DNA of 64,000 bases. Source: Nitrososphaerota archaeon (GTDB taxonomy: Archaea > Thermoproteota > Nitrososphaeria > Conexivisphaerales > UBA164). Position 1 is the stretch's first letter, and the number at the start of each line of letters is the position of its first letter. The position numbers and the translations under genes are program-made. The stretch spans positions 21,659-85,658 of the forward strand of contig WYER01000005.1 of assembly GCA_009903795.1 (NCBI GenBank), read 5' to 3'. The notes under the pieces are model-generated. The model was not told the origin of the DNA. It did no database searches and worked only from the letters and a program-made list of their open reading frames with translations. Shown here in pieces: positions 2,769 through 55,004 of the stretch.

Positions 2769-2809
2769 TAAAGTGAACAAGAAACCTAGCCCATTCTAGG
2801 TAAGGTCAG
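2769..2809 (+). repeat. miniature IS200/IS605-type end element (left-end hairpin fused to right-end tip)
   Basis: The sequence taaagtgaacaagaaacctagcccattctaggtaaggtcag has the same architecture as the copies at 39704 and 42780, and ttga precedes it as at 39704. It overlaps the stop of the 2806..3651 ORF. Confidence 0.45.
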
Positions 2810-3703: not shown

Positions 3704-3778
3704 AGCCGGGGTAGCTCAGCTGGTTAGAGCGCCAGACTCATAATCTGGAGGTCGAGGGTTCAAAGCCCTCCCCCGGCA
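3704..3778 (+). tRNA. tRNA with CAU anticodon (elongator Met, or Ile2 if the C34 is modified)
   Basis: Cloverleaf by hand: GCCGGGG/TA/GCTC-AGCTGGTTA-GAGC/G/CCAGA-CTCATAA-TCTGG/AGGTC/GAGGG-TTCAAAG-CCCTC/CCCCGGC/A. The anticodon is at 3739-3741. Confidence 0.9.
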
Positions 3779-3879
3779 AATAAACTTTTCGTTTATGTGC
3801 CTACATACTAACAACTTTAAGTAAACACTGAATGGGCGGTTGCCAAAATGATGCTGTCTGACCGTTTAGGCCAAAAATG
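3775..3879 (+). repeat. arm A of a ~100-bp inverted repeat that starts in the last nucleotides of tRNA-Met
   Basis: ggcaaataaacttttcgtttatgtgcctacatactaacaactttaagtaaacactgaatgggcggttgccaaaatgatgctgtctgaccgtttaggccaaaaatg matches the reverse complement of 6141..6244, apart from a few substitutions and small indels. Confidence 0.8.
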
Positions 3880-5959: not shown

Positions 5960-6037
5960 GTTTCCTTTTGCGGCTGTCTTTTGGGTTCATAAACAAGGAA
6001 TTAACAGCCGCACTATAAATAATTATTCAACACAACA
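5960..6037 (-). mobile_element. solo terminal fragment (~80 nt of the left end) of the IS present in full at 12704..13756
   Basis: gcggctgtcttttgggttcataaacaaggaattaacagccgcactataaataattattcaacacaaca aligns to the reverse complement of 12704..12780. Confidence 0.75.
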
Positions 6038-6140: not shown

Positions 6141-6244
6141 ACCATTTTTTGCCTAAACAGTCAGCATCATTTTGGCAACCGCCTATTCAGTGTTTACCTA
6201 AAATTGTTAGTATGTAGGCACATAACCGTAAAGCTTATTTGCCC
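6141..6244 (-). repeat. arm B of the inverted repeat derived from the tRNA-Met 3' flank
   Basis: The reverse complement reads gggcaaataagctttacggttatgtgcctacatactaacaattttaggtaaacactgaataggcggttgccaaaatgatgctgactgtttaggcaaaaaatgg. Confidence 0.8.
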
Positions 6245-8073: not shown

Positions 8074-8628
8074 ATGAAATGCGAAGACCTTTACAAAGTC
8101 GCTGAAGCGTGTATATGCCTTACTTTTTATGAGGAAGCTGCAATCCTTTATAAAAAATATATAGAAGAATGTAACGCAAAAGACCCTGCCGCTTGGCATG
8201 GTCTAGCAAATGCGCTCGAAGAAATTAAAGATGAAGCATACAAAGAAGCATATAAAAAAGCTTATGAACTTTATGATGAAAGCAGCTGGAGTTCTTGTCT
8301 CTGGAAAGGTTGGTGTGCTATGAAGCTTGGTAAGTACGAAGAAGCAGTAAGGCTCTTTGAAAAGTCCGTCAAATATAACGATAAATACCCGTACACTTTA
8401 CAGAGCTATGCTATAGCATTGATAAAGCTGGGAAGGAAAGATGATGCAGAGGAAGTTTTAAGGCGCTTTAAAGAAATAAGCAAAGAAATAAAATATGAGG
8501 AGAGGATCTGTGAGGGTTATGCTATGCTGCTGAGCGTTAAAAACTTTGAAGAGATCGATCACATATACAGGAAAGCTCAAGCTGTAGCAGAAAGGTGTAA
8601 CAAAAATACTTTGGACTATGCCCGTTAG
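8074..8628 (+). CDS. TPR-repeat protein
   Basis: 184 aa with repeated A/Y/W-rich 34-residue-like units (AAWHGLANALEEIKDEAYKEAYKKAYEL, WKGWCAMKLGKYEEAVRLFEKSVKYN). Confidence 0.55.
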   Translation: MKCEDLYKVAEACICLTFYEEAAILYKKYIEECNAKDPAAWHGLANALEEIKDEAYKEAYKKAYELYDESSWSSCLWKGWCAMKLGKYEEAVRLFEKSVKYNDKYPYTLQSYAIALIKLGRKDDAEEVLRRFKEISKEIKYEERICEGYAMLLSVKNFEEIDHIYRKAQAVAERCNKNTLDYAR

Positions 8629-11530: not shown

Positions 11531-12386
11531 GTTTAAAGTAAAAATACGCTAGTTAATTAATTTTTTCTTTAAGATTTATGGGATTAAAGGTGGAACCCCA
11601 TTTAGCGAACTTTAGATAATCGCTTTATGAAAATGTTTAAACCTTCTGCAAGTTATCATGTAAGGCTTTATAGCAGAGTTTATACAGCTAGCCAATTTCA
11701 TGTTGAGCATTATTTGTTATACACTACACCGTTAAAACTGATGAGGCCCCTTATAAATTTCCTCAGAAAAATGAAATTTTATACTTGCGGGAGTACTGTT
11801 AACTCCATAAAGTAAAAAAGCATTAAAATAGTTAAGCTACCCAAGGATAGTAACTACCCGGGGTAGTTACGAAATATTTTAACTTTTTGAGTTTTAAAAG
11901 GGTCACTATATTTTAGTTTTAGGTTGATAAGAAGCTTTAATTCTGCGAAAGGTGTGTTTTTGAAGTTTTTACTTAACAGTTTTGTCTCTTTTACTCTTCG
12001 GTCTTGTTGTGTCCTTGCCTTCTCACGCTTCGCTTTTGGGTCCTTTTGGAGAAGTTTTGCTTTCAATGTATAAGATAAACGCGCAAGCTGTGTATCCAAG
12101 AGCCCGCTTTCTTACGCTTACGGTTCTGTTTTTATAGGAGGATCGTGGTATTACGTGAACAATTCCGCAATAGTTTCAAAGACAACTACTTCGAAAACAT
12201 CTTCGACGGGAGGAGGGGTTAGGGCAACGAATGTGAGTGCTTCTGCTTCGGCTTCAGCTTCTGCATCTGCGACTTCAAACACGACAATCACGGCTTTTAC
12301 CCTTTTTTCGGTCGCGTATAGGTCGTTCAGGTTTTATTATGAGCACCTCCTTTATAAACCGAGGGAATGTTGATTTGAAAAACGAG

Positions 12387-12461
12387 TGCTCCGGCCGGGA
12401 TTTGAACCCGGGTCTTCGGCTCGAGAGGCCGACATACTTGACCAGTCTATACGACCGGAGC
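12387..12461 (-). tRNA. tRNA-Glu (CUC)
   Basis: Minus strand: GCTCCGG/TC/GTAT-AGACTGGTCAA-GTAT/G/TCGGC-CTCTCGA-GCCGA/AGAC/CCGGG-TTCAAAT-CCCGG/CCGGAGC/A. Confidence 0.9.
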
Positions 12462-12500
12462 TATTTTTATTTTAGATTATGCATTTTTAGGTTTTACTGT

Positions 12501-12606
12501 GTTAACTGCTCCAATCTCGCGATTGGAGCTTCTCGGTTCATAGTCGTGCCTTATTTGAGGCCCGATCATTTCCGGGAATTTCGCCTGCGTTTAACAGGCT
12601 AAGCCC
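12501..12606 (-). repeat. copy 1 of a ~100-nt hairpin-rich element located upstream of a tRNA gene
   Basis: The minus strand reads gggcttagcctgttaaacgcaggcgaaattcccggaaatgatcgggcctcaaataaggcacgactatgaaccgagaagctccaatcgcgagattggagcagttaac. The 3' 40 nt are identical to 33788..33827. Confidence 0.7.
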
Positions 12607-12703
12607 TTTAGTGTAGATAATTTATAAAATTCGCTTATAAGCATTATTTATATTCTACTTAACTTTTTTCTTCATCATTTTTCAGATTTATTACTTCACA
12701 TCA

Positions 12704-13756
12704 TGCTGTGTTGAATAATTATTTATAGCGCGGCTGTCAATTCCTTGCTTATGTGCCCAAAAGAAAAAGACAGCCACAATAATAATAGCAAAAGATGGGG
12801 TAATAAGTTTATCGACAAAAGGAACTGGAAAAGTTACAATGAAGAGCTTGTAGTGAGGGGTGAGTTTTTGTTGCCGATAGATATGTTTGAAAACTGGTAT
12901 GAAGAATTGGATAAGATGAATGAGGGCAAGAAAGGTAGGCCATATGAATTTCCTGAATCTTTTATAAAAATCCAGGCTTTATAGCATCAGTGTTGGTTAA
13001 AGGGGACTTGAGGGTATAGCAAGGTCACTGGAAAAGTTATGCTTGATACCTTACCATGATGATTACACAACCATATGGCAAAGAGTACATGACATGAGAC
13101 CTGAAATAAGGCTACCAACATACGATGAAGTCGAAGCTGGCTCAGACGGAACTGGGTTTAAGTCTGGCAACGCTGGCGAGTACAGGACTTATGTTTATGG
13201 AAAAATAATGAGAAAGTACGTTAAGGTAATAATAACTGCTGAGATAAAGTCAAAGAAGCTGATTGCTTTGATGTAAAGATAGGCGAAGTATCTGAGCCAA
13301 AGGTAGCTGTGAAGCACATAAAGCTGTTAAAAGAGAAATGGATAAAGCTGAAAAAGTTCTACGGCGATGGCGCATACGACACGAACGAAATATTCAATGC
13401 AATTGGCGATGCAGAATCAGCTATAAAGATAAGGAAGAACGCTACAACTTATCGTTGTAGAGGTAGCCGGAGAAGAAGGCAGGAAGTTAGGAAGTACATA
13501 AAGCTTGGGTACAAGACATGGGCAAAAGACACCAAGTATGGGCTGAGATGGGCTATCGAAGGGATATTCTCATCAGTAAAGAGGAAGTTCGGTGAGGACC
13601 TTAGGGCAAGAAGCCCTATTGGACTGATAGCGGAAGCTATGCAGAAAATGTGGATTTATGATGAGATGGTAAGCTATGGGAGGAATTCAATGTTGTCAAC
13701 GATCTAGGCTATCAAAATTAACATGCCAAATTGCTAAACAATTATTCAACACAGCA
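12704..13756 (+). mobile_element. DDE-transposase insertion sequence (IS4/IS5 superfamily) with ~17-bp terminal inverted repeats and a 9-bp target-site duplication; the transposase is decayed
   Basis: The terminal inverted repeats are tgctgtgttgaataatt at 12704 and aattattcaacacagca ending at 13756. The flanking direct repeats ttcacatca lie at 12695-12703 and 13757-13765. Confidence 0.85.
12745..13707 (+). pseudogene. DDE transposase split into three ORFs by a stop and frameshifts
   Basis: The three ORFs are 12745..12984, 13043..13276 (GSDGTG) and 13309..13707 (YGDGAYD, RWAIEGIFSSVKRKFGE). Together they form one IS4/IS5-type transposase. Confidence 0.8.
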
Positions 13757-15321: not shown

Positions 15322-15480
15322 CTGACATCCTCTCCGTCTTAAAAGGCGATGGTTCCTTCAAGGCGGATCATGGGTTTGTGGTTTATCGCCTTCATCTTCA
15401 TCGTTTCATAGCTAGCAGGTGCGAATCGCACCCACCCCGCTCTGTTCGTCCAGCGATAGACCACGGGCTGTGCCTTCAGC
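15322..15480 (-). ncRNA. putative omega (reRNA) scaffold of the TnpB element
   Basis: Assigned by position: the 3' end of tnpB plus the right end. Complementary segments are ccgcctt / aaggcgg and cgcct-ttta-aggcg. The same stretch is what the TnpB-less copies retain. The boundaries are not determined. Confidence 0.35.
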
Positions 15481-16601
15481 CACTTACCCCTATCCTTAAC
15501 GGACTCGGGGATATGTAGAATGTTTATTGCCCCGTTCAGATCAGCGTTTATTACCTTCCCTGTGTGAGGACACTTGAACAAGCCTCTTTCAATCCTTCCG
15601 TTTTCGTGAATTTCCCCACACAGGGAACACTTCTTAGATGTATTTTCCTCATCCACGAGCTTAACCTTTATTCCGTATTCTTGTGCAACGTTCTTGATTC
15701 GCTTTATTATTGCTGAATAGCTCCAGAAGTTTGTGTTCCTTTCGTTTCCTTTATCCTGAGCTATTCCCTTTGGGTAGCCTATCTTTATTTCCCCTACTCC
15801 TTTATCATACAGTCTCTCTACGATTTCCCTCGCTAAGCCTTCTCTAGCGTTCTTAAGCAAAAGAGAACGCTTTTTGTAAAGTTTTTCAAGCTTCCTGCTA
15901 GTTTTTAAGCCGTGCCTTGCAAGCCTCTTCTTTTCCTTAGAAATGCGCTTTGTTATCTTCTTGAACTCTGAAAGCACTGAACCTCCTTTAAAAAGCATCC
16001 ACGAGCCGTCTTCAACGGCAACGGTTGCAAGGTTTACAACGCCTAGATCGATGCCCGCTTTCATTTTGCCTTTTGGTTTATTATTTACTTTTACACTTAC
16101 AGGAATTCTTGCGTACCACTTTCTTCTCACGGTATCATAAAATATTTCAAGGGTTCCCTGCTTGCCTACCCACTTAAGCTTGCCAATGAACTTGAGCCTC
16201 AGGTTGAAATCCATGAGATATATTTCGTTTCCTTCAATCTTGTACCTGTCATGTCTTATCAGCAAAAACAAGTCATCTTTCTTTTTATGTGGAGGCTTAG
16301 GCTTCATCCACTTAGGCAATTCACCTTCTTTCTTCTTTTTGCTTAGCTCGAAGAAAGATTTCCATACAGAAGCGTTCTTTCGCGTTACTTGTTGAACGTT
16401 TGCCCCGTGCAATACAGCTTTGAATTTTTCATAAACGACTTTTTCTGTTTTATTAAAATCTACAGGCTCGTGCTTTTTATATTGCTCAAGCCTCAACTTA
16501 TTAACTTCGTTCCAGCAATTAACGAATGCCTTTCCGAGAGCCGTTAGTTTAGCTTTTGTCTCCTTTCCTGAAATGATGAGTACCGTGTTTGATCGTCGCA
16601 A
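15339..16601 (-). CDS. tnpB: TnpB RNA-guided endonuclease (RuvC plus zinc finger)
   Basis: GIDLGVVNLATV (RuvC-I), the CSLCGE..CPHTGKVINADLNGAINI zinc finger and RuvC-III. 420 aa with no internal lesions. Confidence 0.9.
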   Translation of the reverse strand: MRRSNTVLIISGKETKAKLTALGKAFVNCWNEVNKLRLEQYKKHEPVDFNKTEKVVYEKFKAVLHGANVQQVTRKNASVWKSFFELSKKKKEGELPKWMKPKPPHKKKDDLFLLIRHDRYKIEGNEIYLMDFNLRLKFIGKLKWVGKQGTLEIFYDTVRRKWYARIPVSVKVNNKPKGKMKAGIDLGVVNLATVAVEDGSWMLFKGGSVLSEFKKITKRISKEKKRLARHGLKTSRKLEKLYKKRSLLLKNAREGLAREIVERLYDKGVGEIKIGYPKGIAQDKGNERNTNFWSYSAIIKRIKNVAQEYGIKVKLVDEENTSKKCSLCGEIHENGRIERGLFKCPHTGKVINADLNGAINILHIPESVKDRGKWLKAQPVVYRWTNRAGWVRFAPASYETMKMKAINHKPMIRLEGTIAF

Positions 16602-16727
16602 GCTTTTGTTATTTTATTCTAATTAAAGTATATAAATACTTAAGCCTTTTTCATGCGAAACACGTTAGCAAAGAAAAAGTATTTTAGTATCCCCGCCTCT
16701 AGAAGAGGCGAGGCTTTCGTTCGTGTG

Positions 16728-17009
16728 GTAAACATTTGCCATAAAAATCAGATCAAACTCACCATCTATTTTTTCACAAAGGTTTTTCTTAACAGTTTTT
16801 ATTCCTTTTTCTTCCATTTCTTTAAAGTAGTAATCGTCTACATCAAATGCATATACAACAGCCCCTTTTTCTTTAAAAGCGTATGAAAAGCGGTCGTCTC
16901 CAGTTCCAAAGTCAGCAACCTTCATGCCTTCTTTTAAATCTAAAAAATCTATTATTTCATTTATATTGTAAGCGAATATGCTGTATCCCCCATGATGAAA
17001 GTGATGCAT
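16728..17009 (-). pseudogene. class I SAM-dependent methyltransferase, N-terminal fragment
   Basis: MKVADFGTGDDRFSYAFKEKGAVVYAFDVDD (motif I/II) ..DLIFMANVYH, after which the ORF runs into left-end sequence of the IS (TNESLASSRGGD). Confidence 0.75.
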
Positions 17010-25654: not shown

Positions 25655-26186
25655 GTTTAAATCCTATATTAGTCTTCTGATTATAACGAAACGAGCGCTT
25701 TTAATTTTCCCGTGCTTTGCAACGCGAAAGAGTTTCAATCCTATATTAGTCTGATTATAACAATGATAGTATCGCAGTTCAGGACATTTCAAGACATATT
25801 GTTTCAATCCTATATTAGTCTGATTATAACCACGTCTTTTGTTTTCAGGTAGGAATACGCAATATGGGTTTCAATCCTATATTAGTCTGATTATAACAAC
25901 ATGACTTTCATTCCGCAAGACCCGAACGAGGAAATTCCCCCACGTTTCAATCCTATATTAGTCTGATTATAACCAAAACTGGATGTGAAAGTAAAAGTAA
26001 TTCAGGTATATTGTTTCAATCCTATATTAGTCTGATTATAACAATTAACAATGACGCAGTGGAAGTTACTACCAGTGCTTGATGTAAGTTTCAATCCTAT
26101 ATTAGTCTGATTATAACTGTCACATAGGATGATACTATTGGTTGTTGATTAAACTTGTTTCAATCCTATATTAGTCTGATTATAAC
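25655..26186 (-). CRISPR. orphan CRISPR array with 8 repeats (one degenerate) and 7 spacers of 37-46 nt
   Basis: Exact 30-nt repeats gtttcaatcctatattagtctgattataac start at 25732, 25801, 25868, 25944, 26013, 26088 and 26157. A degenerate 33-nt repeat lies at 25655-25687 (c>a plus a ttc insertion). Read on the minus strand the repeat ends in ATTGAAAC, and the AT-rich flank at 26187+ fits a leader. Confidence 0.95.
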
Positions 26187-26500
26187 CCGCTACCGCATTA
26201 TTATATTTCATATAAATATAAAAGTTTTACTTTTTAGTATAATATTGGCTGAATCGTCGGTTTTGATGTTTATTTATAAAGATGAGCATGACGTTTGAAA
26301 AAAAAAGTAAAACATAACTCCTTTAATCTTATAATCTACTAATTATCTAGGGCGGGGAGGATGTCAGATCATTTTAAACAAGAAAAATCCTCTGTAAGGG
26401 TTAGGTAGTTCGTTTAAACTCAAACTTTTTAAGTTGATAAAAAGCTTCTATTTTATTTGCATGATAAACAGTTAAATTCTTAAAGTAATAGATAAACAAT

Positions 26501-28003: not shown

Positions 28004-28009
28004 TATTAC

Positions 28010-28303
28010 AAAATGAACAAAAGCCTCGCCTCTTCTAGAGGCTGGGTAAATTTAAATTACTAAAACCTTGTAAAGCATATTAAAGCGTGTCCCGTAGGGA
28101 ATACTTCAAGAAGGCTCTACATATCCTGGAGTCCAATGAGGATAGGGTAAGTGGCTGAAGGAACAGTCCGTGGTCTATCGCTGGACGAACAGAGCGGGGT
28201 GGGTAACCACTAGCTATGAAGTCATGAAGATGAAGGCGGTAAACCACGAACCTATGACCCGCCTTGAATGAACAATCGCCTTTTAAGGCGGTGAGGATGT
28301 CAG
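28010..28303 (+). mobile_element. TnpB-less miniature IS200/IS605 derivative (left end + tnpB 3' tail + right end)
   Basis: aaaatgaacaaaagcctcgcctcttctagaggctggg ... gtggtctatcgctggacgaacagagcggggtgggtaaccactagctatgaag ... gccttttaaggcggtgaggatgtcag. The ORF remnant contains stop codons. Confidence 0.85.
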
Positions 28304-28344
28304 AGAAAATTTAAAAACTAAACCAATAAATGATCTGCTGAAGA

Positions 28345-33590: not shown

Positions 33591-33726
33591 GAACTGTTAA
33601 GGTGCAACCCTATCATAAAAATCATGCAAAAGTTTTGATCCTAAGATTAATGGAAAAAGCAACGGTACGCATACCACCTTATAGAAACGCTTATAAGCAA
33701 ATTCAAGATAGATTACCTGCTTGAGA

Positions 33727-33827
33727 GGGCATAGCCTGTTAAACACAGGCGATATGCCCGGGATGATCGTGCCCAAACAAGGCACGGTTATCCGAGAAGC
33801 TCCAATCGCGAGATTGGAGCAGTTAAC
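33727..33827 (+). repeat. copy 2 of the ~100-nt hairpin-rich element, ending 7 nt upstream of tRNA-Lys
   Basis: gggcatagcctgttaaacacaggcgatatgcccgggatgatcgtgcccaaacaaggcacggttatccgagaagctccaatcgcgagattggagcagttaac. It contains three or four hairpins, including a 9-bp stem with a GCGA loop. Confidence 0.7.
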
Positions 33828-33834
33828 AAACAGT

Positions 33835-33921
33835 GGGCCCGTAGCTCAGCCAGGTAGACGTGAGGCCTAAAGCATCGGGCTTTTAACCCGAGGGTCGTGG
33901 GTTCGAATCCCACCGGGCCCG
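33835..33921 (+). tRNA. tRNA-Lys (UUU) with a ~13-nt insertion in the D-arm (putative non-canonical intron)
   Basis: After removing cgtgaggcctaaa (about 33859-33871) the fold is perfect: GGGCCCG/TA/GCTC-AGCCAGGTA-GAGC/A/TCGGG-CTTTTAA-CCCGA/GGGTC/GTGGG-TTCGAAT-CCCAC/CGGGCCC/G. Without the removal the D-stem cannot form. Confidence 0.75.
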
Positions 33922-33993
33922 TACATTTTTTAAAATTTTCATTCAATTTTTTCTAAAGTAATATTTTTAAGTTACAAATTTTACAAATCATTC

Positions 33994-39703: not shown

Positions 39704-39750
39704 AAAGTGAACGACAAGCCTCGCCTCTTCAAGGACGGGGAGGAGGTCAG
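39704..39750 (+). repeat. miniature left-end-hairpin/right-end-tip element
   Basis: aaagtgaacgacaagcctcgcctcttcaaggacggggaggaggtcag, preceded by ttgat. A decayed tnpB-tail-like sequence follows it (tggtctatcg..tagttatgag). Confidence 0.6.
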
Positions 39751-39924: not shown

Positions 39925-41425
39925 CTGACCTCCTCCCCGCCTTAAAAGGCGAGGGTTCCCTGAGGTCTTAAGGGTTACACCCCTTTACGGGTGCTACTCT
40001 TTTGTGATCTACTATGAAAGATATAGGCTTCTTTATTTTTGAAACAATTACGTCCACTGCTTTTTTGAGAATGTTCAATGAGCCGTTAAGGTCTGAATGA
40101 AGTCTATGTCCTTTAGGGCAAATAACTACTCCTCTCGGGTTTCTTTCGACTTCTACATCATGATAAGCACAGTACTTTGAAGTATTATACTCAACAACCT
40201 CAAACACTTTTATTCCATACTCTTGAGCCTTAAGTTCTATTGTATCCATGAATTTGCAATAAGACCAAACGTTTACGGTAAATTTATTGCCCTTCTCCTG
40301 AGCTATCTCGATAGGGTAGCCTAAGTATATAGTTGAAACGCCTAGTTCGTGCAACTCTTTTACTAAATGCGAAGCAAAGTTCCTGTACAAGTGACGAAGC
40401 CTTCTCCTTAATTTCCAGTGTAAATTCCTCTTCTCTTTTAATAACTCCTCATACGCTTTATATTTACCCATGTTTTTCGTTTTGTCTGCCAATGATTGTA
40501 CTTCTGCTATTTTATTTTCAAAGTAAAAATAATCTTCCTTAGCCCTAACGCCTTTGTACAGCAACCAAGTTCCGTCTTCTACGATTACGCTTGCCAAAAC
40601 GTTGATGCCTAAGTCTATTGAAGCCATTTTGTTTCCTTTAGGCGATTCAACCTGAATGCTTTTCCTTTTGCCGTGAACAATATGCTTGCTTTTATTTCCC
40701 TTTTTAGTTATTTCAATGCCTACATCAACGGGGATTGAAGCGTACCACGCGTTCCTAGTTTCGTCGTAGTATATTTCAAGCCTTCCTTGTTTACCGTACC
40801 ACTTTAACCTGCCTACGAAATCAATTTCGAGCTCAAAGTCCTTGAGGATTAACTTATGGTTCTGCTCGTCCACAACGTACCTGTCTTGTCTTATCACGAG
40901 CATTAGCTTCCTCTTCTTAGTTTCCCTGTCCTTCCAGTAATTCGGTGGGCTAACGCGTTTTATGAATGGCGGCAATTTTCCTTCTTTCTTCAGCCTTAGC
41001 AAGGAGAAAAAGGAAGACCAGGCTTCGTTGTTCTTTTTCATGACTTCTTGAGCGTTAGCGCTACCTAATTTATCCTTATACTTCTCGTAGTATTTATCCC
41101 ACGTTGTATTAAAATCCACGTGATGTTGCTGGAAGAACTGTTGTCTCCTTTCGTAGTTAATTTCGTTGAAGAGTTTTGCTGAAATGTTCGCTAACTTTTT
41201 GAGCTTTCTTTCTTGAAAACCGTTCGGGAAAAGGCGCACGACGTTTGTCCTCTTATTTGAATACGTAACTTCGTAGATGCCCTCCTCTGGCATTGCGGGC
41301 GAATTCGGCTCCCGCTCCTCATGTCCTAAGAGTTGACCAGAGGAGAGCATCTTAAAACAAAAATAGCAGTTTTAATTTAAAAGCTTTACCCCGCCCCTAG
41401 AAGGGACGAGGTTTTCGTTTGTTTT
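39925..41425 (-). mobile_element. second IS200/IS605-family tnpB-only element
   Basis: The left end is aaaacaaacgaaaacctcgtcccttctaggggcgggg (minus strand), preceded by gttat. The right-end tip cctcgccttttaaggcggggaggaggtcag ends at 39925. Confidence 0.85.
39968..41350 (-). CDS. tnpB: TnpB RNA-guided endonuclease (second, divergent copy)
   Basis: SIDLGINVLASV, and the CAYHD..CPKGHRLHSDLNGSLNI zinc finger with RuvC-III. 460-aa ORF; the real start may be the internal MPEEGIY. Confidence 0.9.
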   Translation of the reverse strand: MLSSGQLLGHEEREPNSPAMPEEGIYEVTYSNKRTNVVRLFPNGFQERKLKKLANISAKLFNEINYERRQQFFQQHHVDFNTTWDKYYEKYKDKLGSANAQEVMKKNNEAWSSFFSLLRLKKEGKLPPFIKRVSPPNYWKDRETKKRKLMLVIRQDRYVVDEQNHKLILKDFELEIDFVGRLKWYGKQGRLEIYYDETRNAWYASIPVDVGIEITKKGNKSKHIVHGKRKSIQVESPKGNKMASIDLGINVLASVIVEDGTWLLYKGVRAKEDYFYFENKIAEVQSLADKTKNMGKYKAYEELLKEKRNLHWKLRRRLRHLYRNFASHLVKELHELGVSTIYLGYPIEIAQEKGNKFTVNVWSYCKFMDTIELKAQEYGIKVFEVVEYNTSKYCAYHDVEVERNPRGVVICPKGHRLHSDLNGSLNILKKAVDVIVSKIKKPISFIVDHKRVAPVKGCNP

Positions 41426-42779: not shown

Positions 42780-42827
42780 AAAATGAACGACAAGCCTCGT
42801 CCCTTCTAGAGGCGGGGAGGAGGTCAG
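42780..42827 (+). repeat. miniature left-end-hairpin/right-end-tip element
   Basis: aaaatgaacgacaagcctcgtcccttctagaggcggggaggaggtcag. Confidence 0.6.
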
Positions 42828-42868: not shown

Positions 42869-44094
42869 TTATTCTTTTTGTTGTAAAAGTGATGGCATAA
42901 CTTTTGCCCAACCTATAACTGTAATGATGTTAGTTGCAATAATTATTAATGATGCAATAGTAACTATGTAATGCGCCATAGGCAGAGAGTAATACAAAGC
43001 CAAAGATGCTAGAACTGCTGGCGTTAATCCCTGAGCCATCATAACATAATACGCTTTTTCGTACTTTTTATTCTTTGTAGAAAGCTTAACTGCTATATAT
43101 CTAGAGCTGAGCAGGATTACCAGCAAAATTCCTACATAAACGTAAGTTAAGAGCGAAAACAGCTTATCAATAAAAAACACGAGTCCTATAAAAAAGAAGA
43201 AGTATGTTCTTAAAAAGAATGTGATTTCTTTTTGAAACATTTTTATATAGTTCACTTGAAGATCTAAAATTTGTTCATTTGCATTTGTCCTAAAAAGGTT
43301 CAGAAATTTTTTGTTGTTCATCAGCACCATACCAAAGGTTAATACTCCTAGAATAGCGCTACCGTTTATAAAAGACAGAAAAGCATATAGCGCAAGCGTA
43401 TAGCCAATTGTTGCTATATAAAAGAATTCTTCCGTCCAGAAATGTCTTGCAAACTCTATCCATACAATGGCTGCGACGAACCCAATAACGATGCCTATAC
43501 TAATCTGAGAAACTAAGGAACTTATTGTGTTTTCAAAACCGTTTATGCTAAAAGGTATAGATTGCAAAAAAGAGTTTAAGCCAAATGTAAACAGAACGAT
43601 TAAAATCACGCTGTTAAGGCTAGATTCAAGGGTGATGTTTGTGAAAAAATCTTCCGCTCTAAGGCTTTTTGCCAAATACGGCACGACTGCCGTTGTAGTC
43701 TCACCGCCTATTACTGTTGAAAGGAAAAATGAAGAATAATTACTCCAGCCAAATAAATATTTGAAGGTGAAGTCAGCAATATAGAGAGAGATACATAGAT
43801 CAACGTTCTAGTAGTGGCGCTTCCACCTTCCTTTAAAAGATCATCAATCATGAAACTCATTCCAAGTTCGAGCATTATCATGGCTAAAGTAAGCTGAGAT
43901 AAGTAAGGAAGTATTTTTACGATTATTGAATATGGGAAAATTCCAAAGATAGGTCCAAAGAGAATACCTATAAGTATAAGGAAAATATACTCTGAGAAAC
44001 CTGTTTTTCTGAAAAACATTTCACCAAAGAAACCTATAAATATTAAACCGGCGGTTATAAAAAAGATTGAAATGTACGAAAGTGCATAACTCAT
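42869..44094 (-). pseudogene. CPA1-type Na+/H+ antiporter split by a frameshift
   Basis: The N-terminal ORF is 43711..44094 (FGEMFFRKTGFSEYIFLILIGILFGP) and the C-terminal ORF is 42869..43684. The C-terminal frame is open upstream to ISLYIADFTFKYLFGWS..STVIGGETTTAVVPYL, so the frames switch at about 43783-43795. Confidence 0.75.
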
Positions 44095-46142: not shown

Positions 46143-47390
46143 ATGGATGAGTTAATAGAAAAGGCTCTTTTAGCAAGAAAGGCGTGGTATGAGCTTTCTA
46201 GAGCCTCCGATAGCCTTCGAAGAAAAGCGTTAGAAGCAATGTCCCAGGCTTTAATTGAAAACCAAGAAAAGATAATTAAGGCTAACCTTTTAGATGTAAA
46301 CAAATTTAAAGAAGAAAGGCAAAACGATCCGCTTTTAGACAGACTTATTCTAAACGAAAAACGGCTAAAGTCAGCGGCTGAAGGGTTAAAAAAGGTAGCT
46401 CAATTGCCGGATCCTATAGGTGAAGTTGTTGAAGGCTGGACTACGGTTCATGGTCTTAAAATTCAGAAAGTTCGTGTTCCTATCGGAGTAATAGGTGTGG
46501 TTTATGAATCTAGGCCTAACGTTACCATAGACATATCAGGGCTAGCAATAAAGTCTGGAAACGCCGTCATTTTAAGAGGCGGATCTGAAGCGCTTAATTC
46601 AAATAAGGCTATAGTGGATGTCTTAAGAGAAAGTATTAAAGACATTCTAAATCCAAACGTTATTCAGTTTATTGAGAATACTGATAGAAACATTGTTGAT
46701 AGGATGCTTAAACTAAACGGCTATTTAGATCTTTTAATTCCAAGAGGTAGTGCTTCCTTTATCGATTATGTTAGAAGAAACGCAACTGTACCAGTAATAG
46801 AAACTGGAGCAGGCAACAATCACATATTCGTTAATTATGATGCCGACCTTAATATGGCAACTAAAATAATAATAAACGCGAAAGTACAAAGGCCCGCAGT
46901 TTGCAATGCTGTAAGGAAGGTACTAATACACAAAGATATAGCAGAGAAATACATTCCAATCTTAGTAAATGAACTAAAAAAATATGGCGTAACCATAAAG
47001 GGCGATGAAAAGGTTAGAGCTATAGTTCCTGACGTTATCTTAGCAAAAGATGAAGATTGGGATGAGGAATATATGGATCTAACTTTGGCAATAAAAATTG
47101 TGAATTCTGTAGAAGAAGCTGTAGAACACATAAACAAACATGGTACAAAACACTCTGAAGCTATAATAACAAATAACCTACATGATGCGCAGTATTTTAC
47201 ATGGAACGTTGACGCAGCTTGCACATACGTAAATGCATCAATAAGATTTACGGATGGTGAACAGTTTGGATTTGGAGCAGAAGTTGGAATAAGCACTCAG
47301 AAGCTTCATGCACGCGGTCCTATGGGAATTAAAGAGCTTACAACAACAAAGTATATTATATTTGGAGAGGGTCAAACGAGGGAAATTTAA
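46143..47390 (+). CDS. proA: gamma-glutamyl phosphate reductase
   Basis: VPIGVIGVVYESRPNVTIDISGLAIKSGNAVILRGGSEA, AVCNAVRKVLIH, and a HGTKHSEAI-type C-terminal region. Confidence 0.85.
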   Translation: MDELIEKALLARKAWYELSRASDSLRRKALEAMSQALIENQEKIIKANLLDVNKFKEERQNDPLLDRLILNEKRLKSAAEGLKKVAQLPDPIGEVVEGWTTVHGLKIQKVRVPIGVIGVVYESRPNVTIDISGLAIKSGNAVILRGGSEALNSNKAIVDVLRESIKDILNPNVIQFIENTDRNIVDRMLKLNGYLDLLIPRGSASFIDYVRRNATVPVIETGAGNNHIFVNYDADLNMATKIIINAKVQRPAVCNAVRKVLIHKDIAEKYIPILVNELKKYGVTIKGDEKVRAIVPDVILAKDEDWDEEYMDLTLAIKIVNSVEEAVEHINKHGTKHSEAIITNNLHDAQYFTWNVDAACTYVNASIRFTDGEQFGFGAEVGISTQKLHARGPMGIKELTTTKYIIFGEGQTREI

Positions 47391-47433
47391 CATAAAAGGA
47401 GTTTAAGAGAAACCTCCATTACCTCTGGACGAC

Positions 47434-47540
47434 GGAGCGGGGTGGGCAACCACTAGCTATGAAGTCATGAAGATGAAGGCGGTAAACCACGAACCTATGA
47501 TCCGCCTTAAACTAGCCTTTTAAGGCGGTGAGGATGTCAG
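47434..47540 (+). mobile_element. right-end-only fragment of the TnpB-less element family
   Basis: ctggacgacggagcggggtgggcaaccactagctatgaagtcatgaagatgaaggcggtaaaccacgaacctatgatccgcctt..gccttttaaggcggtgaggatgtcag. Confidence 0.8.
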
Positions 47541-49642: not shown

Positions 49643-50037
49643 CCTTAGGATTTTAAGTCCATTTTATAGAAAGTTTTTTTAATAGCTAAAGAAAATTTTG
49701 TGCCTTCAAACCCAGGGGAGAAGAAGAAACAAACCTTGCTTAATATAAAGTCTCAGTACGCTTTACAGCTTTTTTAACGCCATATCCAGGAAGGAGCAAG
49801 TACAAACTACTCATAAGGATCAATACATAAACATGGTAGTCCACTACGGCAAAAGCTATTCGATAGTAACCAAGCTTCGATAGGAGAATCCGCATCGCCT
49901 TGAAGAGGAAGTTTAGCTCTTTGGCGAATGAAATCAGCGATAAACGTGGCTTTGTGAAACATGTAGGAAAGGCTTAGAGATGATTTTGCAAATATGATGA
50001 AATAATTTTTCACATAAGCATAGCTGTAAAATAGAAA

Positions 50038-50320
50038 GCCTCGTCTCTTTTAGAGGCGGGCTAAAATTTAAATTACCAAAACCTTATAAAGCGTATTAAA
50101 TCGTGTCCCGTAAGGAATACTTCAAGAAGGCTCTACATATCCCCGAGTTCTTTGAGGATAGTGGTAAGTGGCTGAAGGCACAGCCCGTGGTCTACCGCTG
50201 GACGAGCGGAACGGGGTGGGTAACCACTAGCTATGAAGCTATGAGAATGATCGCGGTAAACCACAAACCTGTGATCCGCCTTGAAGGAACGCTAGCCTTT
50301 TAAGGCGGTGAGTATGTCAG
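50038..50320 (+). mobile_element. TnpB-less miniature IS200/IS605 derivative
   Basis: The architecture matches 28010..28303. The track ORF 50103..50303 (..GKWLKAQPVVYRWTSGTGWVTTSYEAMRMIAVNHKPVIRLEGTLAF) is the TnpB C-terminal remnant. Confidence 0.85.
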
Positions 50321-50356
50321 AAAGAATTTATAAATGTTCATGTTTACATTTAATTT

Positions 50357-53504: not shown

Positions 53505-53549
53505 TTACCAACGAAAAAATTTAACTTGACCAGATTATAAATTTTTTAC

Positions 53550-53845
53550 AAAATGAACGAAAGCCTCGCCTTTTCTAGAGGCTGGGTAAATTTAAATTAC
53601 TAAAACGTTGTAAAGCGTATTAAAGCGTGTCCCGTAAGGGAATGTTGCACGAGGGCTCTACATATCTTGTAGTCCAATGAGGATAGGGGTAAGTGGCTGA
53701 AGGAACAGCCCGTGGTCTACCGCTGGACGAACGAAGCGGGGTGGGTAACCATTAGCTATGAAGTGATGAAGATGAAGGCGATAAACCACAAACCTATGAC
53801 CCGCCTTGAATGAACAATCGCCTTTTAAGGCGGTGAGTATGTAAG
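53550..53845 (+). mobile_element. TnpB-less miniature IS200/IS605 derivative overlapping the 3' end of the MFS ORF
   Basis: aaaatgaacgaaagcctcgccttttctagaggctggg ... gccttttaaggcggtgagtatgtaag, preceded by tttac. Confidence 0.85.
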
Positions 53846-55004
53846 ACACCTTATTATTTGACTTTTTAATTTTCATTTGCATTTTTATCGTTTCAGCGCG
53901 TTTTAATGGTAAGAATTTTATTAAAACCCAAAAGAATAAAAAAACTATAGCTGCAATAAAAGCTACTAGCCATATATAATCAAACCCATAAAAAGAAGCG
54001 AGGCCACCTATTAAAGGCCCCAAAGTATACCCAGCACCTATACTTGATTCAAAAATTCCTGTTCTTATGCCAAGGCCTTTAATTTCTGTAAACATTATTT
54101 TATAAAGAACATAAAAATATATAATCCCTGAACCGTAAAAAATTAAAGAAAGCGAAACAAGCTGCAGGAAAAACTCTTTATAAACAAAAAGAATAACATA
54201 AAAGACCTGAAGTCCTAGTCCTAATGTTATTCCAATTTTTGGTTCATCCTTAAACAAAGGTGCTGAAAGAAAAGCCATTACTATAAAAACGCTTGAAATT
54301 GACATTATCATTCCTGAACCCTTTACACCAAACACAATTCCTGCATATGCTGAATAAAACGCATAAATGATTGAGACCGAAAATCCATAAAAGAAAATTG
54401 GAAATATTATTTCTTTACCTAAATCTATTTTTGAAATAACGTTTGTTTCTTCATACTTTAGAGGTTCTAAGTATATTGCTAAAATTCCTCCAAGAAGGGA
54501 AAAAGCTGACGCTATTATAAAAGGTAAAACAAGAATTAAAGTAAATAATGAACCTAAATATGGTGCTATTGTAGAAGCAAAAGACCAGCCTATAGTGTAC
54601 ATCGCTGTAGATGCTTTTTTATTATCAAAAAATTTTGACAACGCTTCTAAAGAAGGCCAGACAAGACTCATCGACAACGCTTCTAATCCTCTTATCAGTA
54701 TCAGCAAATAAGGAATCTTTACAAAGACATACAATAATATTATTAATGCATAAAAAATTAGACCAAATTCTAAAGATCTTATATAACCTATTTTTTCGGA
54801 TTTTTTGCCAATTATGTATGCTGAAAATGTATAAACTACGCCGTAGGAAAATCCCATCAGGCCAAGGATAAGTCCTGTAGCCCCTATTTTAACAGCAAAA
54901 ATTGGAGCGTAGAACCTTATTAATGAAAGCGGCATCTGGGATAGAAGAGATAGTAAGAACAGCAAAAAGAGAAATTTTATTCTTTTGTTCAAAGCGTTAT
55001 ACAA
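53658..55004 (-). CDS. MFS-type transporter whose last ~60 codons are read from the inserted miniature element
   Basis: The hydrophobic MFS body runs up to ..FLFFWVLIKFLPLKR. The tail ..VSYILTALKGDCSFKAGHRFVVYRLHLHHFIANGYPPRFVRPAVDHGLFLQPLTPILIGLQDM is antisense to the element at 53550..53845. Confidence 0.65.
   Translation of the reverse strand: MYNALNKRIKFLFLLFLLSLLSQMPLSLIRFYAPIFAVKIGATGLILGLMGFSYGVVYTFSAYIIGKKSEKIGYIRSLEFGLIFYALIILLYVFVKIPYLLILIRGLEALSMSLVWPSLEALSKFFDNKKASTAMYTIGWSFASTIAPYLGSLFTLILVLPFIIASAFSLLGGILAIYLEPLKYEETNVISKIDLGKEIIFPIFFYGFSVSIIYAFYSAYAGIVFGVKGSGMIMSISSVFIVMAFLSAPLFKDEPKIGITLGLGLQVFYVILFVYKEFFLQLVSLSLIFYGSGIIYFYVLYKIMFTEIKGLGIRTGIFESSIGAGYTLGPLIGGLASFYGFDYIWLVAFIAAIVFLFFWVLIKFLPLKRAETIKMQMKIKKSNNKVSYILTALKGDCSFKAGHRFVVYRLHLHHFIANGYPPRFVRPAVDHGLFLQPLTPILIGLQDM

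What the first reader, a model, noticed from the sequence alone, without database searches (positions are those of the whole stretch)
28010..28303. TnpB-less miniature elements that keep exactly the omega-RNA-encoding tail plus both transposon ends
There are three full copies (28010..28303, 50038..50320, 53550..53845) and one right-end-only copy (47434..47540). Each joins a left-end hairpin (aaaatgaacRaaagcctcgcctYttctagaggcKgg) directly to the last ~200 nt of a tnpB gene and the right-end tip (gccttttaaggcggtgagKatgtMag). In copy 28010 the protein remnant is broken by stops (..PGVQ*G*GKW.., ..RLE*T..), yet the nucleotide sequence stays close to the other copies. All copies read gggtaaccactagc where the resident tnpB (15339..16601) reads gggtgcgattcgcacctgctagc, so their parent is not in this window. 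It is established that the TnpB guide RNA (omega/reRNA) is encoded by the tnpB 3' end plus the right end, with the guide taken from the flank. My inference is that these are trans-mobilised MITEs. They could also act as stand-alone guide-RNA genes for the two intact TnpB nucleases, each carrying a different flank-derived guide.
Basis: partly seen in the sequence, partly recalled or inferred. Interest (0 to 1): 0.7.

Follow-up and report, generated by a model that had tools for sequence, protein, structure and literature searches.

The report
Gene-less transposon copies keeping guide RNA
These are short, protein-less copies of an archaeal IS200/IS605 transposon that keep both ends plus the whole guide-RNA (omega RNA) module of the lost tnpB nuclease gene; this kind of element is already described, so it is a clean new example, not a new kind.

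Summary
The window holds three ~290-nt elements (28010-28303, 50028-50320, 53550-53845), one 5'-truncated copy (47425-47540) and one full-length 1.4-kb tnpB element (15322-16727, minus strand). Each short element joins a left-end hairpin and a 76-nt element-specific segment to the last ~180 nt of tnpB and the right-end tip.

That tail matches the omega RNA scaffold. In three hot-spring metatranscriptomes RNA depth is very high over it and zero over the element-specific left part. The scaffold is conserved, with a supported fold, from this Nitrososphaeria archaeon to Sulfolobales, Thermoproteales and other archaea.

The family is high-copy, has sharp boundaries, inserts after TTAC, and shows empty sites in related strains.

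Three things are not shown:
- RNA made from the short copies themselves.
- A TnpA transposase (none in 265 kb searched).
- Compatibility with the second TnpB, which has a different scaffold.

Palindrome-associated elements (PATEs) derived from IS605, and mobilised stand-alone omega RNAs that work in trans, are already published. Verdict: real, well described, a new member of a known kind, modest interest.

The parts
28006..28009 (+). TTAC target / transposon-adjacent motif in front of M1
   Evidence: TTAC precedes the left end of M1, M3, six MITE copies from metagenomes and the MAG, and the full-length copies.
28010..28303 (+). M1, a complete short element (the finding)
   Evidence: Metagenome contigs of other copies diverge at 28006 and 28303.
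28024..28046 (+). M1 left-end subterminal hairpin (GCCTCT-tct-AGAGGC)
   Evidence: DNA fold, z = -2.5. Shared with the left end of tnpB1 at 16691-16731 (I13).
28047..28122 (+). Segment specific to the short elements, with an A/T-rich aaatttaaatta box
   Evidence: Found only in short copies and in no sampled full-length copy. DNA depth is 650-1170 but RNA depth is 0.
28123..28303 (+). tnpB 3' remnant. The omega RNA scaffold is 28140-28303 and the right-end hairpin and tip are 28277-28303.
   Evidence: Covariance model hit of 188.9 bits. RNA fold of -53.7 kcal/mol, z = -2.6. High RNA depth from about 28145. Frame broken.
28304..28323 (+). Predicted flank-derived guide of M1 (AGAAAATTTAAAAACTAAAC)
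   Evidence: Inferred from the position rule for TnpB guide RNAs. No second match in 265 kb. Viral hits stop at nt 16 and are chance.
50028..50320 (+). M2. Scaffold 50156-50320. The left tip is aberrant and there is no TTAC.
   Evidence: 189.6 bits. Remnant frame open. A related strain has ...TTAC directly abutting 50321.
53550..53845 (+). M3. TTAC at 53546-53549, scaffold 53681-53845. The predicted 3' end of the MFS gene ORF 53658-55004 (minus strand) overlaps the element.
   Evidence: (193.6 bits).
47425..47540 (+). M4, a 5'-truncated copy with no left end. It lacks the 5' strands of scaffold helices 1-3.
   Evidence: 100.9 bits.
15322..16727 (-). Resident full-length element. tnpB1 ORF 15339-16601, scaffold 15322-15495, TTAC at 16728-16731.
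   Evidence: Pfam OrfB_IS605 and Cas12f1-like_TNB. D-E-D residues intact. Empty site in metagenome X2. tnpB mRNA seen in RNA runs.
39925..41425 (-). Second IS200/IS605 element (tnpB2, ORF 39968-41350). It has a different scaffold and a right-end tip GGGGAGGAGGTCAG, and is not a cognate partner.
   Evidence: 25 bits, tip only.

Best explanation
M1-M3 are PATE-type, non-autonomous derivatives of an IS200/IS605 (tnpB-only, IS1341-like) insertion sequence of a hot-spring Nitrososphaeria archaeon.

Shown: one ancestral deletion removed about 1.1 kb of tnpB. It kept the left-end hairpin, a short internal segment, the complete ~160-nt omega RNA scaffold and the right end. That derivative then multiplied to an estimated 30-50 single-copy equivalents (summed contig depth, so other community members may contribute).

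Inferred:
1. A Y1 TnpA encoded elsewhere excises and inserts the single-stranded element 3' of TTAC, without target duplication.
2. The element is transcribed at a low level. For M1 this would be read-through from the carboxypeptidase gene that ends 3 nt upstream of its TTAC.
3. A TnpB1-type protein made by full-length copies binds and trims the scaffold in trans.
4. The 3' extension, which is the element's own flank, guides cleavage of the vacated TTAC+flank joint.
5. Recombination with a sister chromosome then restores the element.

On this reading the omega RNA module is a retention device that the short elements borrow, not a host gene. M2 (no TTAC, damaged left tip) and M4 (no left end, half a scaffold) are immobile fossils.
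For: Anatomy and boundaries.

Single shared deletion junction in all 15 short copies.

TTAC rule.

Copy number: the element-specific segment is roughly 30-50 times single-copy depth, against 9-15 times for the tnpB body.

Mobility:
- An empty tnpB1 site with TTTAC in run X2.
- In a divergent strain, homology to the window starts exactly at 50321 and is preceded by ...CTTAC.
- A full-length copy sits in the MAG after the TTTAC that matches window ~8092-8096, where the window has no element.

Scaffold is a real structured RNA:
- 43 sequences with TnpB only 55-59% identical keep it.
- 97.8% of cells are paired, against 32-53% when partners are slid.
- 14 cells show compensatory changes, a value reached by 0 of 500 shuffles.
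- A variable-length hairpin keeps its stem.

Short copies keep the fold: about 1.0 broken pair per copy against 0.69 in full-length copies. All but one of their frame-breaking indels lie in unpaired columns.

Expression: in three metatranscriptomes RNA depth is 10^3 to 8x10^4 over the scaffold only. tnpB mRNA is present. A low-depth RNA contig runs from the upstream gene into M1 (X9 record 17). One RNA contig crosses M1's right tip into its flank.

Partner enzyme: TnpB1 keeps D185, E318 and D354 and the zinc-finger cysteines. A 58%-identical relative from Sulfolobus islandicus belongs to the family whose member SisTnpB1 cuts DNA with such an RNA (PMC10640517).

Concept already published: PMC10055086, PMC10691335, PMC3119063.
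Against: - No RNA can be assigned to the short copies. The element-specific segment has zero RNA depth although its DNA depth is high. RNA contigs that reach upstream of the scaffold carry tnpB coding sequence.
- Contigs break at the right tip, so guides are unresolved.
- Among short copies the scaffold is on average no better conserved (~0.89 pairwise identity) than the element-specific segment (0.88).
- There is only one deletion junction, so retention of the scaffold could be an accident of one event.
- Terminal-only elements of 40-48 nt persist in the same window without any scaffold.
- No TnpA was found.
- The window's own TnpB1 carries the long-hairpin scaffold variant. Cross-use of the short variant is assumed, not tested.
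Confidence: 0.55

Rival explanations
1. Inert deletion derivatives. One internal deletion happened to leave the 3' 180 nt. The copies spread (or were copied by recombination) only because both transposon ends are present. The scaffold is carried as baggage and stays similar through youth and gene conversion with full-length copies. No guide RNA function.
For: - A single junction is shared by all copies.
- No RNA specific to the short elements was seen.
- Scaffold and non-scaffold parts have equal mean divergence.
- There are slightly more broken pairs than in full-length copies.
- Scaffold-less terminal-only elements persist.
- Gene conversion is evident. At the same site, M1 and contig L004 are 93.7% identical with 3 indels, while the flanks are 98.7% and 99.7% identical. 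M1 shares derived variants with M3.
Against: - Substitutions in short copies still avoid paired positions (0.53 per paired column against 0.94 per unpaired column, summed over the 15 copies), and indels mostly avoid helices.
- The junction lies only about 22-25 nt upstream of the RNA's 5' edge, so the whole scaffold is kept and little else.
- Stand-alone omega RNAs have been shown to work in trans elsewhere (PMC10691335, citing Altae-Tran 2021).
Confidence: 0.35
2. Host-recruited guide-RNA genes. The short elements are domesticated stand-alone guides that direct TnpB against foreign DNA or regulate host genes.
For: The scaffold RNA family is very abundant in situ. An element-specific segment with an A/T-rich box could act as a promoter.
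Against: - Guides are simply each copy's own flank. They have no second match in 265 kb of related DNA.
- Viral-contig matches end exactly at the 16 nt that were required, so they are chance.
- The copies are polymorphic, multi-copy and decaying (M2, M4), which is how selfish elements behave.
- No nuclease-dead TnpB is present; D-E-D is intact.
Confidence: 0.03
3. Assembly or duplication artefact: the copies are mis-assembled repeats or segmental duplications and not discrete elements.
For: Repeats do break metagenome assemblies here.
Against: - The same element with the same boundaries is present on independent contigs from several studies and in a MAG, each with different flanks.
- One independent contig (L004) reproduces the M1 locus over 4 kb.
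Confidence: 0.01

Closest known systems
Palindrome-associated transposable elements (PATEs) derived from IS605-type transposons, described in Haloquadratum walsbyi (PMC3119063), including HqIRS71 and the 52-bp terminal-only forms
   Same: - No terminal inverted repeats and no target duplication, with near-terminal palindromes like those of tnpB-bearing IS605 elements.
- Origin by internal deletion.
- One described PATE (HqIRS71) also keeps a non-coding C-terminal tnpB segment.
- The 40-48-nt hairpin-plus-tip elements in this window mirror the 52-bp terminal-only PATEs.
   Different: A different archaeal lineage (thermophilic Nitrososphaeria, not haloarchaea), with unrelated sequence. That paper predates the discovery of omega RNA, so it did not interpret the retained tail.
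Stand-alone, mobilised omega RNAs and PATE-like elements that carry omega RNAs (Altae-Tran 2021 as summarised in PMC10691335; Geobacillus stearothermophilus elements in PMC10055086)
   Same: Loci with transposon ends and a guide-RNA scaffold but no nuclease or transposase gene. They sit in genomes that also hold effector-bearing copies and were proposed or shown to be used in trans.
   Different: Those cases are bacterial, and some are IscB-type. Here trans use is not demonstrated. Expression of the archaeal scaffold is shown only at the family level.
IS605 elements of Sulfolobales encoding TnpA plus TnpB, including SisTnpB1 of Sulfolobus islandicus (PMC10640517)
   Same: TnpB is 55-59% identical. 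The omega RNA scaffold aligns along its whole length, with the same helices and a similar right-end tip (GGAGGAGGTCAG or close variants, against GTGAGGATGTCAG here). A thermophilic RNA-guided DNA nuclease has been shown experimentally in this group.
   Different: The Sulfolobales copies sampled here carry tnpA upstream. That paper also describes solo-tnpB elements, and gives TAMs of TTTAA (tnpA+tnpB elements) and TTTAT (solo tnpB). The elements here have no tnpA, use TTAC, and the short copies carry a shortened variable hairpin.
Classical MITEs (deletion derivatives of DDE transposons)
   Same: Short, non-coding, multi-copy and dependent on a transposase supplied in trans.
   Different: Classical MITEs are defined by terminal inverted repeats and target-site duplications. 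Both are absent here.

Membership tests
IS200/IS605-derived non-autonomous element (PATE) | Subterminal hairpins at both ends, no terminal inverted repeats | tested here: met
   Left hairpin GCCTCT-tct-AGAGGC and right hairpin CGCCT-ttta-AGGCG (5 bp). The two termini are not inverted copies of each other.
IS200/IS605-derived non-autonomous element (PATE) | Insertion 3' of a fixed short motif, without target duplication | tested here: met
   TTAC precedes M1, M3, six further short copies and the full-length copies. The flanks show no duplication. M2 is an exception (CTGT), although a related strain has TTAC abutting its right flank.
IS200/IS605-derived non-autonomous element (PATE) | Ends shared with a protein-coding IS of the same genome | tested here: met
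   85-88% match to the tnpB1 left end and 81-97% match to its 3' tail (I1-I4, I6, I7, I11, I13).
IS200/IS605-derived non-autonomous element (PATE) | No coding capacity | tested here: met
   Only the last ~56 codons of tnpB remain. They are broken in M1 and M3 and open in M2.
IS200/IS605-derived non-autonomous element (PATE) | Multiple copies at unrelated sites, with presence/absence differences between strains | tested here: met
IS200/IS605-derived non-autonomous element (PATE) | A Y1 (HUH) TnpA available in trans | tested here: inconclusive
   tblastn with four archaeal TnpA proteins and a motif scan found none in the window or in 29 related loci, 265 kb in all. The whole genome was not available.
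TnpB omega RNA gene (stand-alone copy) | Scaffold coincides with the tnpB 3' end and stops at the right-end boundary | tested here: met
   Alignment to 28 full-length copies. Covariance model hits end at 28303, 50320 and 53845.
TnpB omega RNA gene (stand-alone copy) | Conserved secondary structure supported by covariation | tested here: met
   34 pairs with 97.8% of cells paired, against 32-53% when partners are slid. Four pairs and 14 cells show double changes, reached by 0 of 500 shuffles for cells and for the score. Support is moderate because the sequences are very conserved.
TnpB omega RNA gene (stand-alone copy) | Accumulates as a stable RNA of roughly scaffold length | tested here: inconclusive
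   This is clear at the family level in three metatranscriptomes. It cannot be assigned to the short copies. The element-specific upstream part has zero RNA depth.
TnpB omega RNA gene (stand-alone copy) | 3' extension of about 16-20 nt taken from the flank serves as guide | tested here: inconclusive
   Assembled contigs break at the tip where copies diverge. Only one long X7 contig crosses M1's tip.
TnpB omega RNA gene (stand-alone copy) | A cognate, catalytically intact TnpB in the same genome | tested here: met
   TnpB1 keeps D185, E318, D354 and the zinc finger, and its mRNA is detected. TnpB2 is not cognate.
TnpB omega RNA gene (stand-alone copy) | Binding by TnpB and guided cleavage | not testable with these tools
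   Needs biochemistry.
Classical MITE | Terminal inverted repeats and target-site duplication | tested here: not met
   Neither is present. The term MITE applies only loosely.
Any Rfam family | Match at gathering score | tested here: not met
   Only four tRNAs pass in the window. This scaffold is not a curated Rfam family.

The most novel reading that the evidence does not exclude
The short elements may spread not only by TnpA transposition but also by recombinational conversion of resident copies. Two observations fit this. First, at one and the same TTAC site the window and contig L004 carry the short element, while the sister-species MAG carries a tnpB-containing copy (L028). Second, two alleles of M1 at that site differ by 6% plus 3 indels, while their flanks differ by 0.3-1.3%, and M1 shares derived variants with M3. 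If this holds, guide-bearing short elements would replace full-length elements in place and come to dominate the guide pool of the remaining TnpB proteins (about 30-50 short copies against 9-15 full-length ones).
Probability: 0.2. Interest if true: 0.5.

Novelty: new member of a known kind. Interest (0 to 1): 0.3.

Why it matters
This is a tidy natural example, in thermophilic Nitrososphaeria, of transposon parts being separable. A short element can keep only the ends (for a borrowed transposase) and the guide-RNA scaffold (for a borrowed nuclease).

It also shows that one omega RNA scaffold family is shared, almost base for base, across distant archaeal orders and is very abundant in hot-spring metatranscriptomes. 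That gives a compact, naturally trimmed scaffold variant (a 4-bp GTAA hairpin) for thermostable TnpB work.

It does not open a new question. The idea of stand-alone omega RNAs used in trans is already in the literature.

Tried and rejected
- Rfam at gathering score: only tRNAs.
- Gapped hairpin-to-tip pattern in species-representative genomes: no hit. The same pattern in metagenomes gave only 6 loci, because repeats break assemblies.
- TnpA search by motif and by tblastn: nothing.
- Looking for the parent of the 76-nt element-specific segment in full-length copies, including relatives with TnpB 81-84% identical: none found.
- Locus-specific guide expression. Logan contigs branch exactly at the right tip, both for M1 and for the positive control tnpB1, so this cannot be read from these data.
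- Empty sites for M1 and M3 in eight metagenomes: none seen.
- TTAC plus 16-nt guide searches in viral contigs. The three hits end at nt 16 and lie in unrelated AT-rich contigs, so they are chance.
- Guide matches within 265 kb of related DNA: self only.
- CRISPR spacers against the elements: no match.
- The sigma-70 promoter scanner was not used because the organism is an archaeon.
- Excess conservation of the scaffold relative to the rest of the short element was tested and not found.

Full report
**What is there**

They are recovered as repeat families together with the 3' end and left end of a full-length tnpB element on the minus strand.

The resident gene at 15339-16601 has the Pfam domains OrfB_IS605 and Cas12f1-like_TNB. 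A second tnpB lies at 39968-41350.

A covariance model built from 43 scaffold sequences and run over the whole window with filters off finds exactly five copies:
- M3 at 53681-53845 (193.6 bits)
- M2 at 50156-50320 (189.6 bits)
- M1 at 28140-28303 (188.9 bits)
- the tnpB1 tail at 15322-15495 (182 bits)
- the truncated M4 at 47364-47540 (100.9 bits)

The next hit is only the right-end tip of tnpB2, at 25 bits.

**Anatomy**

Each full short element has five parts, in this order:
1. A TTAC in the flank.
2. A ~14-nt left tip.
3. A hairpin, GCCTCT-tct-AGAGGC.
4. A 76-nt segment with an A/T-rich box (aaatttaaatta).
5. From 'ctacatatcc' onward, the last ~180 nt of tnpB through the right-end hairpin (CGCCT-ttta-AGGCG) to ...GATGTCAG.

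The 76-nt segment occurs in every short copy and in no sampled full-length copy. So 'hairpin joined directly to the tnpB tail' is not quite right.

M1's coding remnant is frameshifted and has three stops. M3's has two stops. M2's is open.

M2 has a 3-nt deletion in its left tip and is preceded by CTGT, not TTAC. M4 begins in the middle of the scaffold and has no left end.

**It is a mobile, high-copy family**

In four hot-spring and related metagenomes, summed contig depth rises from the single-copy level to 30-90 times that level between 28010 and 28303. Contigs of other copies, with different flanks, diverge from the window sequence before 28006 and after 28303.

Pattern searches recovered six further short copies on metagenome contigs. 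They also recovered 24 scaffold matches (23 loci) in one MAG labelled Nitrososphaeria archaeon F8S.bin.2. That MAG shares about 93-95% nucleotide identity with the window over syntenic stretches. It holds a mix of ~1.4-kb full-length elements and short ones.

All 15 short copies share one deletion junction. Eight of the nine with an intact left end follow TTAC.

Presence/absence differences are seen in three places:
- An X2 contig joins 15311 to 16726, leaving TTTAC plus a variant 10-nt flank. This is an empty tnpB1 site.
- In a divergent strain in X10 and X8, homology to the window begins exactly at 50321, the first base after M2. It is preceded by ...GCAATCTTAC.
- A full-length copy in the MAG follows the TTTAC that corresponds to window ~8092-8096, where the window has no element.

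From summed depths, the element-specific segment is at about 30-50 single-copy equivalents. The tnpB body is at about 9-15. These are crude figures, because contig depths are summed across community members.

**The parent**

That is correct.

Full-length copies in the MAG carry the short form or a +3 variant. These include L026, which sits at the site orthologous to tnpB1.

Relatives from Sulfolobales, Verstraetearchaeota and other lineages carry long forms. In every case the segment is a hairpin:
- GTGG-gtaa-CCAC
- GTGGG-taaat-CCCAC
- an 8-9-bp stem in the long forms

So the difference is a length-variable stem-loop of the RNA. The inference 'parent not in this window' holds.

**The retained tail is the omega RNA**

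TnpB1 has homologues at 55-59% identity inside complete tnpA+tnpB IS605 elements. These come from Sulfolobus/Saccharolobus, Metallosphaera, Sulfurisphaera, Caldivirga, Thermofilum and a Sulfolobus virus.

Despite that protein divergence, the ~165 nt from GGATAGGGGTAA to GGTCAG align almost base for base.

RNAalifold gives six helices with 34 pairs. Counted on the alignment:
- 97.8% of cells form standard pairs, against 32-53% when partners are slid by 1-3 columns.
- Four pairs and 14 cells show changes on both sides. For the cell count and the covariation score, 0 of 500 shuffles reach the observed value.
- Most one-sided changes are wobble-compatible.

M1 and tnpB1 fold alike, each with z of about -2.6. 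Rfam has no family for this RNA.

**RNA evidence**

In three metatranscriptomes held as assembled contigs, depth over the scaffold reaches 10^3 to 8x10^4. This holds over ~28145-28303, 50157-50320 and 53682-53845. Flanking genes are at 0-30.

The 5' edge of that signal lies 22-25 nt downstream of the deletion junction. The short elements therefore keep the whole scaffold and little else.

The element-specific segment has zero RNA depth, although its DNA depth is 500-1300. Every RNA contig that extends upstream of the scaffold continues into tnpB coding sequence (..ATAAACATTCTACATATCC).

tnpB mRNA is present at depth 200-600, and its 5' untranslated region is at 0-7.

Contigs end at the right tip, where copies diverge, both for M1 and for tnpB1. 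Guide-bearing RNAs therefore cannot be read from these data.

The only locus-specific signals are two:
- A low-depth X9 contig that runs from the upstream carboxypeptidase gene into M1.
- An X7 contig (depth 28.7) that runs from M1's tip through its flank and the tRNA-Leu gene.

Family-level expression is thus shown. Expression of the short copies is not.

**Constraint on the short copies**

Short copies have about 1.0 broken pair each, against 0.69 for nearby full-length copies. Summed over the 15 copies, their substitutions fall at 0.53 per paired column against 0.94 per unpaired column, much like the full-length copies.

Their frame-breaking indels (1, 8 and 14 nt, and 3-4 nt in a loop) lie in unpaired columns. 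The one exception is a 1-nt deletion in a hairpin. Full-length copies show mostly in-frame indels (multiples of three).

Against selection, mean pairwise identity among short copies is about the same for the scaffold (~0.89) as for the element-specific segment (0.88). The copies are also not independent.

Gene conversion is evident. At the same site, M1 and contig L004 differ by 18 substitutions and 3 indels in 286 aligned nt. Their flanks are 98.7% and 99.7% identical. M1 shares derived variants with M3.

At that same site the MAG contig carries at least 335 nt of tnpB-type sequence (L028). That contig is low-coverage and ends inside the repeat, so a chimera cannot be excluded.

**Partners**

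TnpB1 keeps the RuvC residues D185, E318 and D354 and the zinc-finger cysteines.

TnpB2 also keeps D-E-D. However, it is only 41% identical to TnpB1, has a different C-terminus and an unrelated scaffold, and shares only the right-end tip. It is not a plausible user of these RNAs.

No Y1 TnpA was found in the window or in 29 related loci. This neither proves nor excludes a copy elsewhere in the genome.

**Guides**

Each predicted guide is the element's own 3' flank. None has a second match in 265 kb of related DNA.

TTAC plus 16-nt guide searches of viral contigs gave three hits. All end at nt 16 and lie in unrelated AT-rich contigs, so they are chance.

This fits the published homing/retention model, in which the target is the vacated donor joint (PMC10055086). 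It does not fit a defence or regulatory role.

**Comparison with what is known**

IS605-derived PATEs were described in 2011 (PMC3119063). That description includes a member that keeps a non-coding tnpB C-terminal segment, and 52-bp terminal-only forms.

Meers et al. note PATE-like elements that 'often encode omega RNAs' needing TnpB in trans (PMC10055086).

Altae-Tran et al. 2023 state that mobilised stand-alone omega RNAs exist and were shown to work in trans (PMC10691335).

SisTnpB1 shows that this archaeal TnpB group is an RNA-guided nuclease at 75 C (PMC10640517).

The finding is therefore a correct and well-observed instance of a known kind. 'MITE' is a loose label for it, because there are no inverted terminal repeats and no target duplication.

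**Verdict**

Observation confirmed. Interpretation partly supported.

Most likely these are non-autonomous IS200/IS605 derivatives that borrow TnpA for movement and TnpB1-type proteins for retention through their own omega RNA (confidence about 0.55). The main rival is that the scaffold is inert baggage (about 0.35).

Novelty: new member of a known kind. Interest 0.3.

Noticed in passing
window 42780-42827 (+), 39704-39750 (+), 2770-2809 (+), 26339-26367 (+): Terminal-only mini-elements of 40-48 nt. A left-end hairpin is fused straight to a right-end tip of the tnpB2 type (GGGGAGGAGGTCAG). They follow TGAC or TTGAT. They match the 52-bp terminal-only PATEs described in Haloquadratum and carry no omega RNA scaffold. 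A similar hairpin-to-tip form also appears as a loose end of an X18 RNA contig.
   Followed up: partly
window 12704-13756: A 1053-nt insertion sequence with terminal inverted repeats GCTGTGTTGAATAATT and a DDE_Tnp_1 transposase split into three ORFs. It is absent from this site in the sister MAG (L026). The same IS sits inside the left-end hairpin of three short elements in the MAG (L016, L021, L029), at the same position. A solo 61-nt end lies at window 5977-6037. This suggests hairpin targeting, as reported for SMR-A elements in Haloquadratum.
   Followed up: partly
window 25655-26186: A small CRISPR array. It has eight 30-nt repeats (GTTTCAATCCTATATTAGTCTGATTATAAC; the first is degenerate) and seven spacers of 37-47 nt. 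No cas gene was found among the neighbouring ORFs scanned. The spacers do not match the transposons or any fetched locus.
   Followed up: partly
window 15311/16726 joint in metagenome run X2: A single-copy-depth contig lacks the whole tnpB1 element. It reads TTTAC followed by a 10-nt variant of the flank. This is an unoccupied site in a related strain.
   Followed up: yes
window 28006-28303 versus L004:1957-2248 and L028:5563-5884: The same insertion site holds three different occupants in close relatives. They are M1, a 93.7%-identical short allele with an 8-nt deletion, and (in the MAG) a copy with at least 335 nt of tnpB. The flanks are 94-99.7% identical. This points to conversion or replacement, or to a MAG assembly chimera.
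   Followed up: partly
window 53658-55004 (-) versus M3 53550-53845: The predicted MFS transporter ORF runs about 188 nt into M3 on the opposite strand. Either the insertion replaced the gene's original 3' end or the ORF call is extended by the element.
   Followed up: no
window 12500-12536 / 33792-33828, 12572-12625 / 33708-33761, and 3775-3860 / 6158-6243: Inverted repeat pairs lie next to tRNA genes (tRNA-Glu at 12386-12461, tRNA-Leu at 33834-33922, tRNA-Met at 3705-3778). One pair is 37 nt and 100% complementary. They may be another small repeat family or attachment-site remnants.
   Followed up: no
window 42869-43684 and 43711-44094 (-): A Na+/H+ exchanger appears split into two adjacent ORFs. 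This may be a frameshift or a pseudogene. It lies close to the mini-element at 42780-42827.
   Followed up: no
L033, L034, L042 (471-614): In some relatives with TnpB 57-59% identical, the ORF just upstream of tnpB is a 47-aa protein with a weak VapB-antitoxin/DUF7557 match. It takes the place of tnpA.
   Followed up: no
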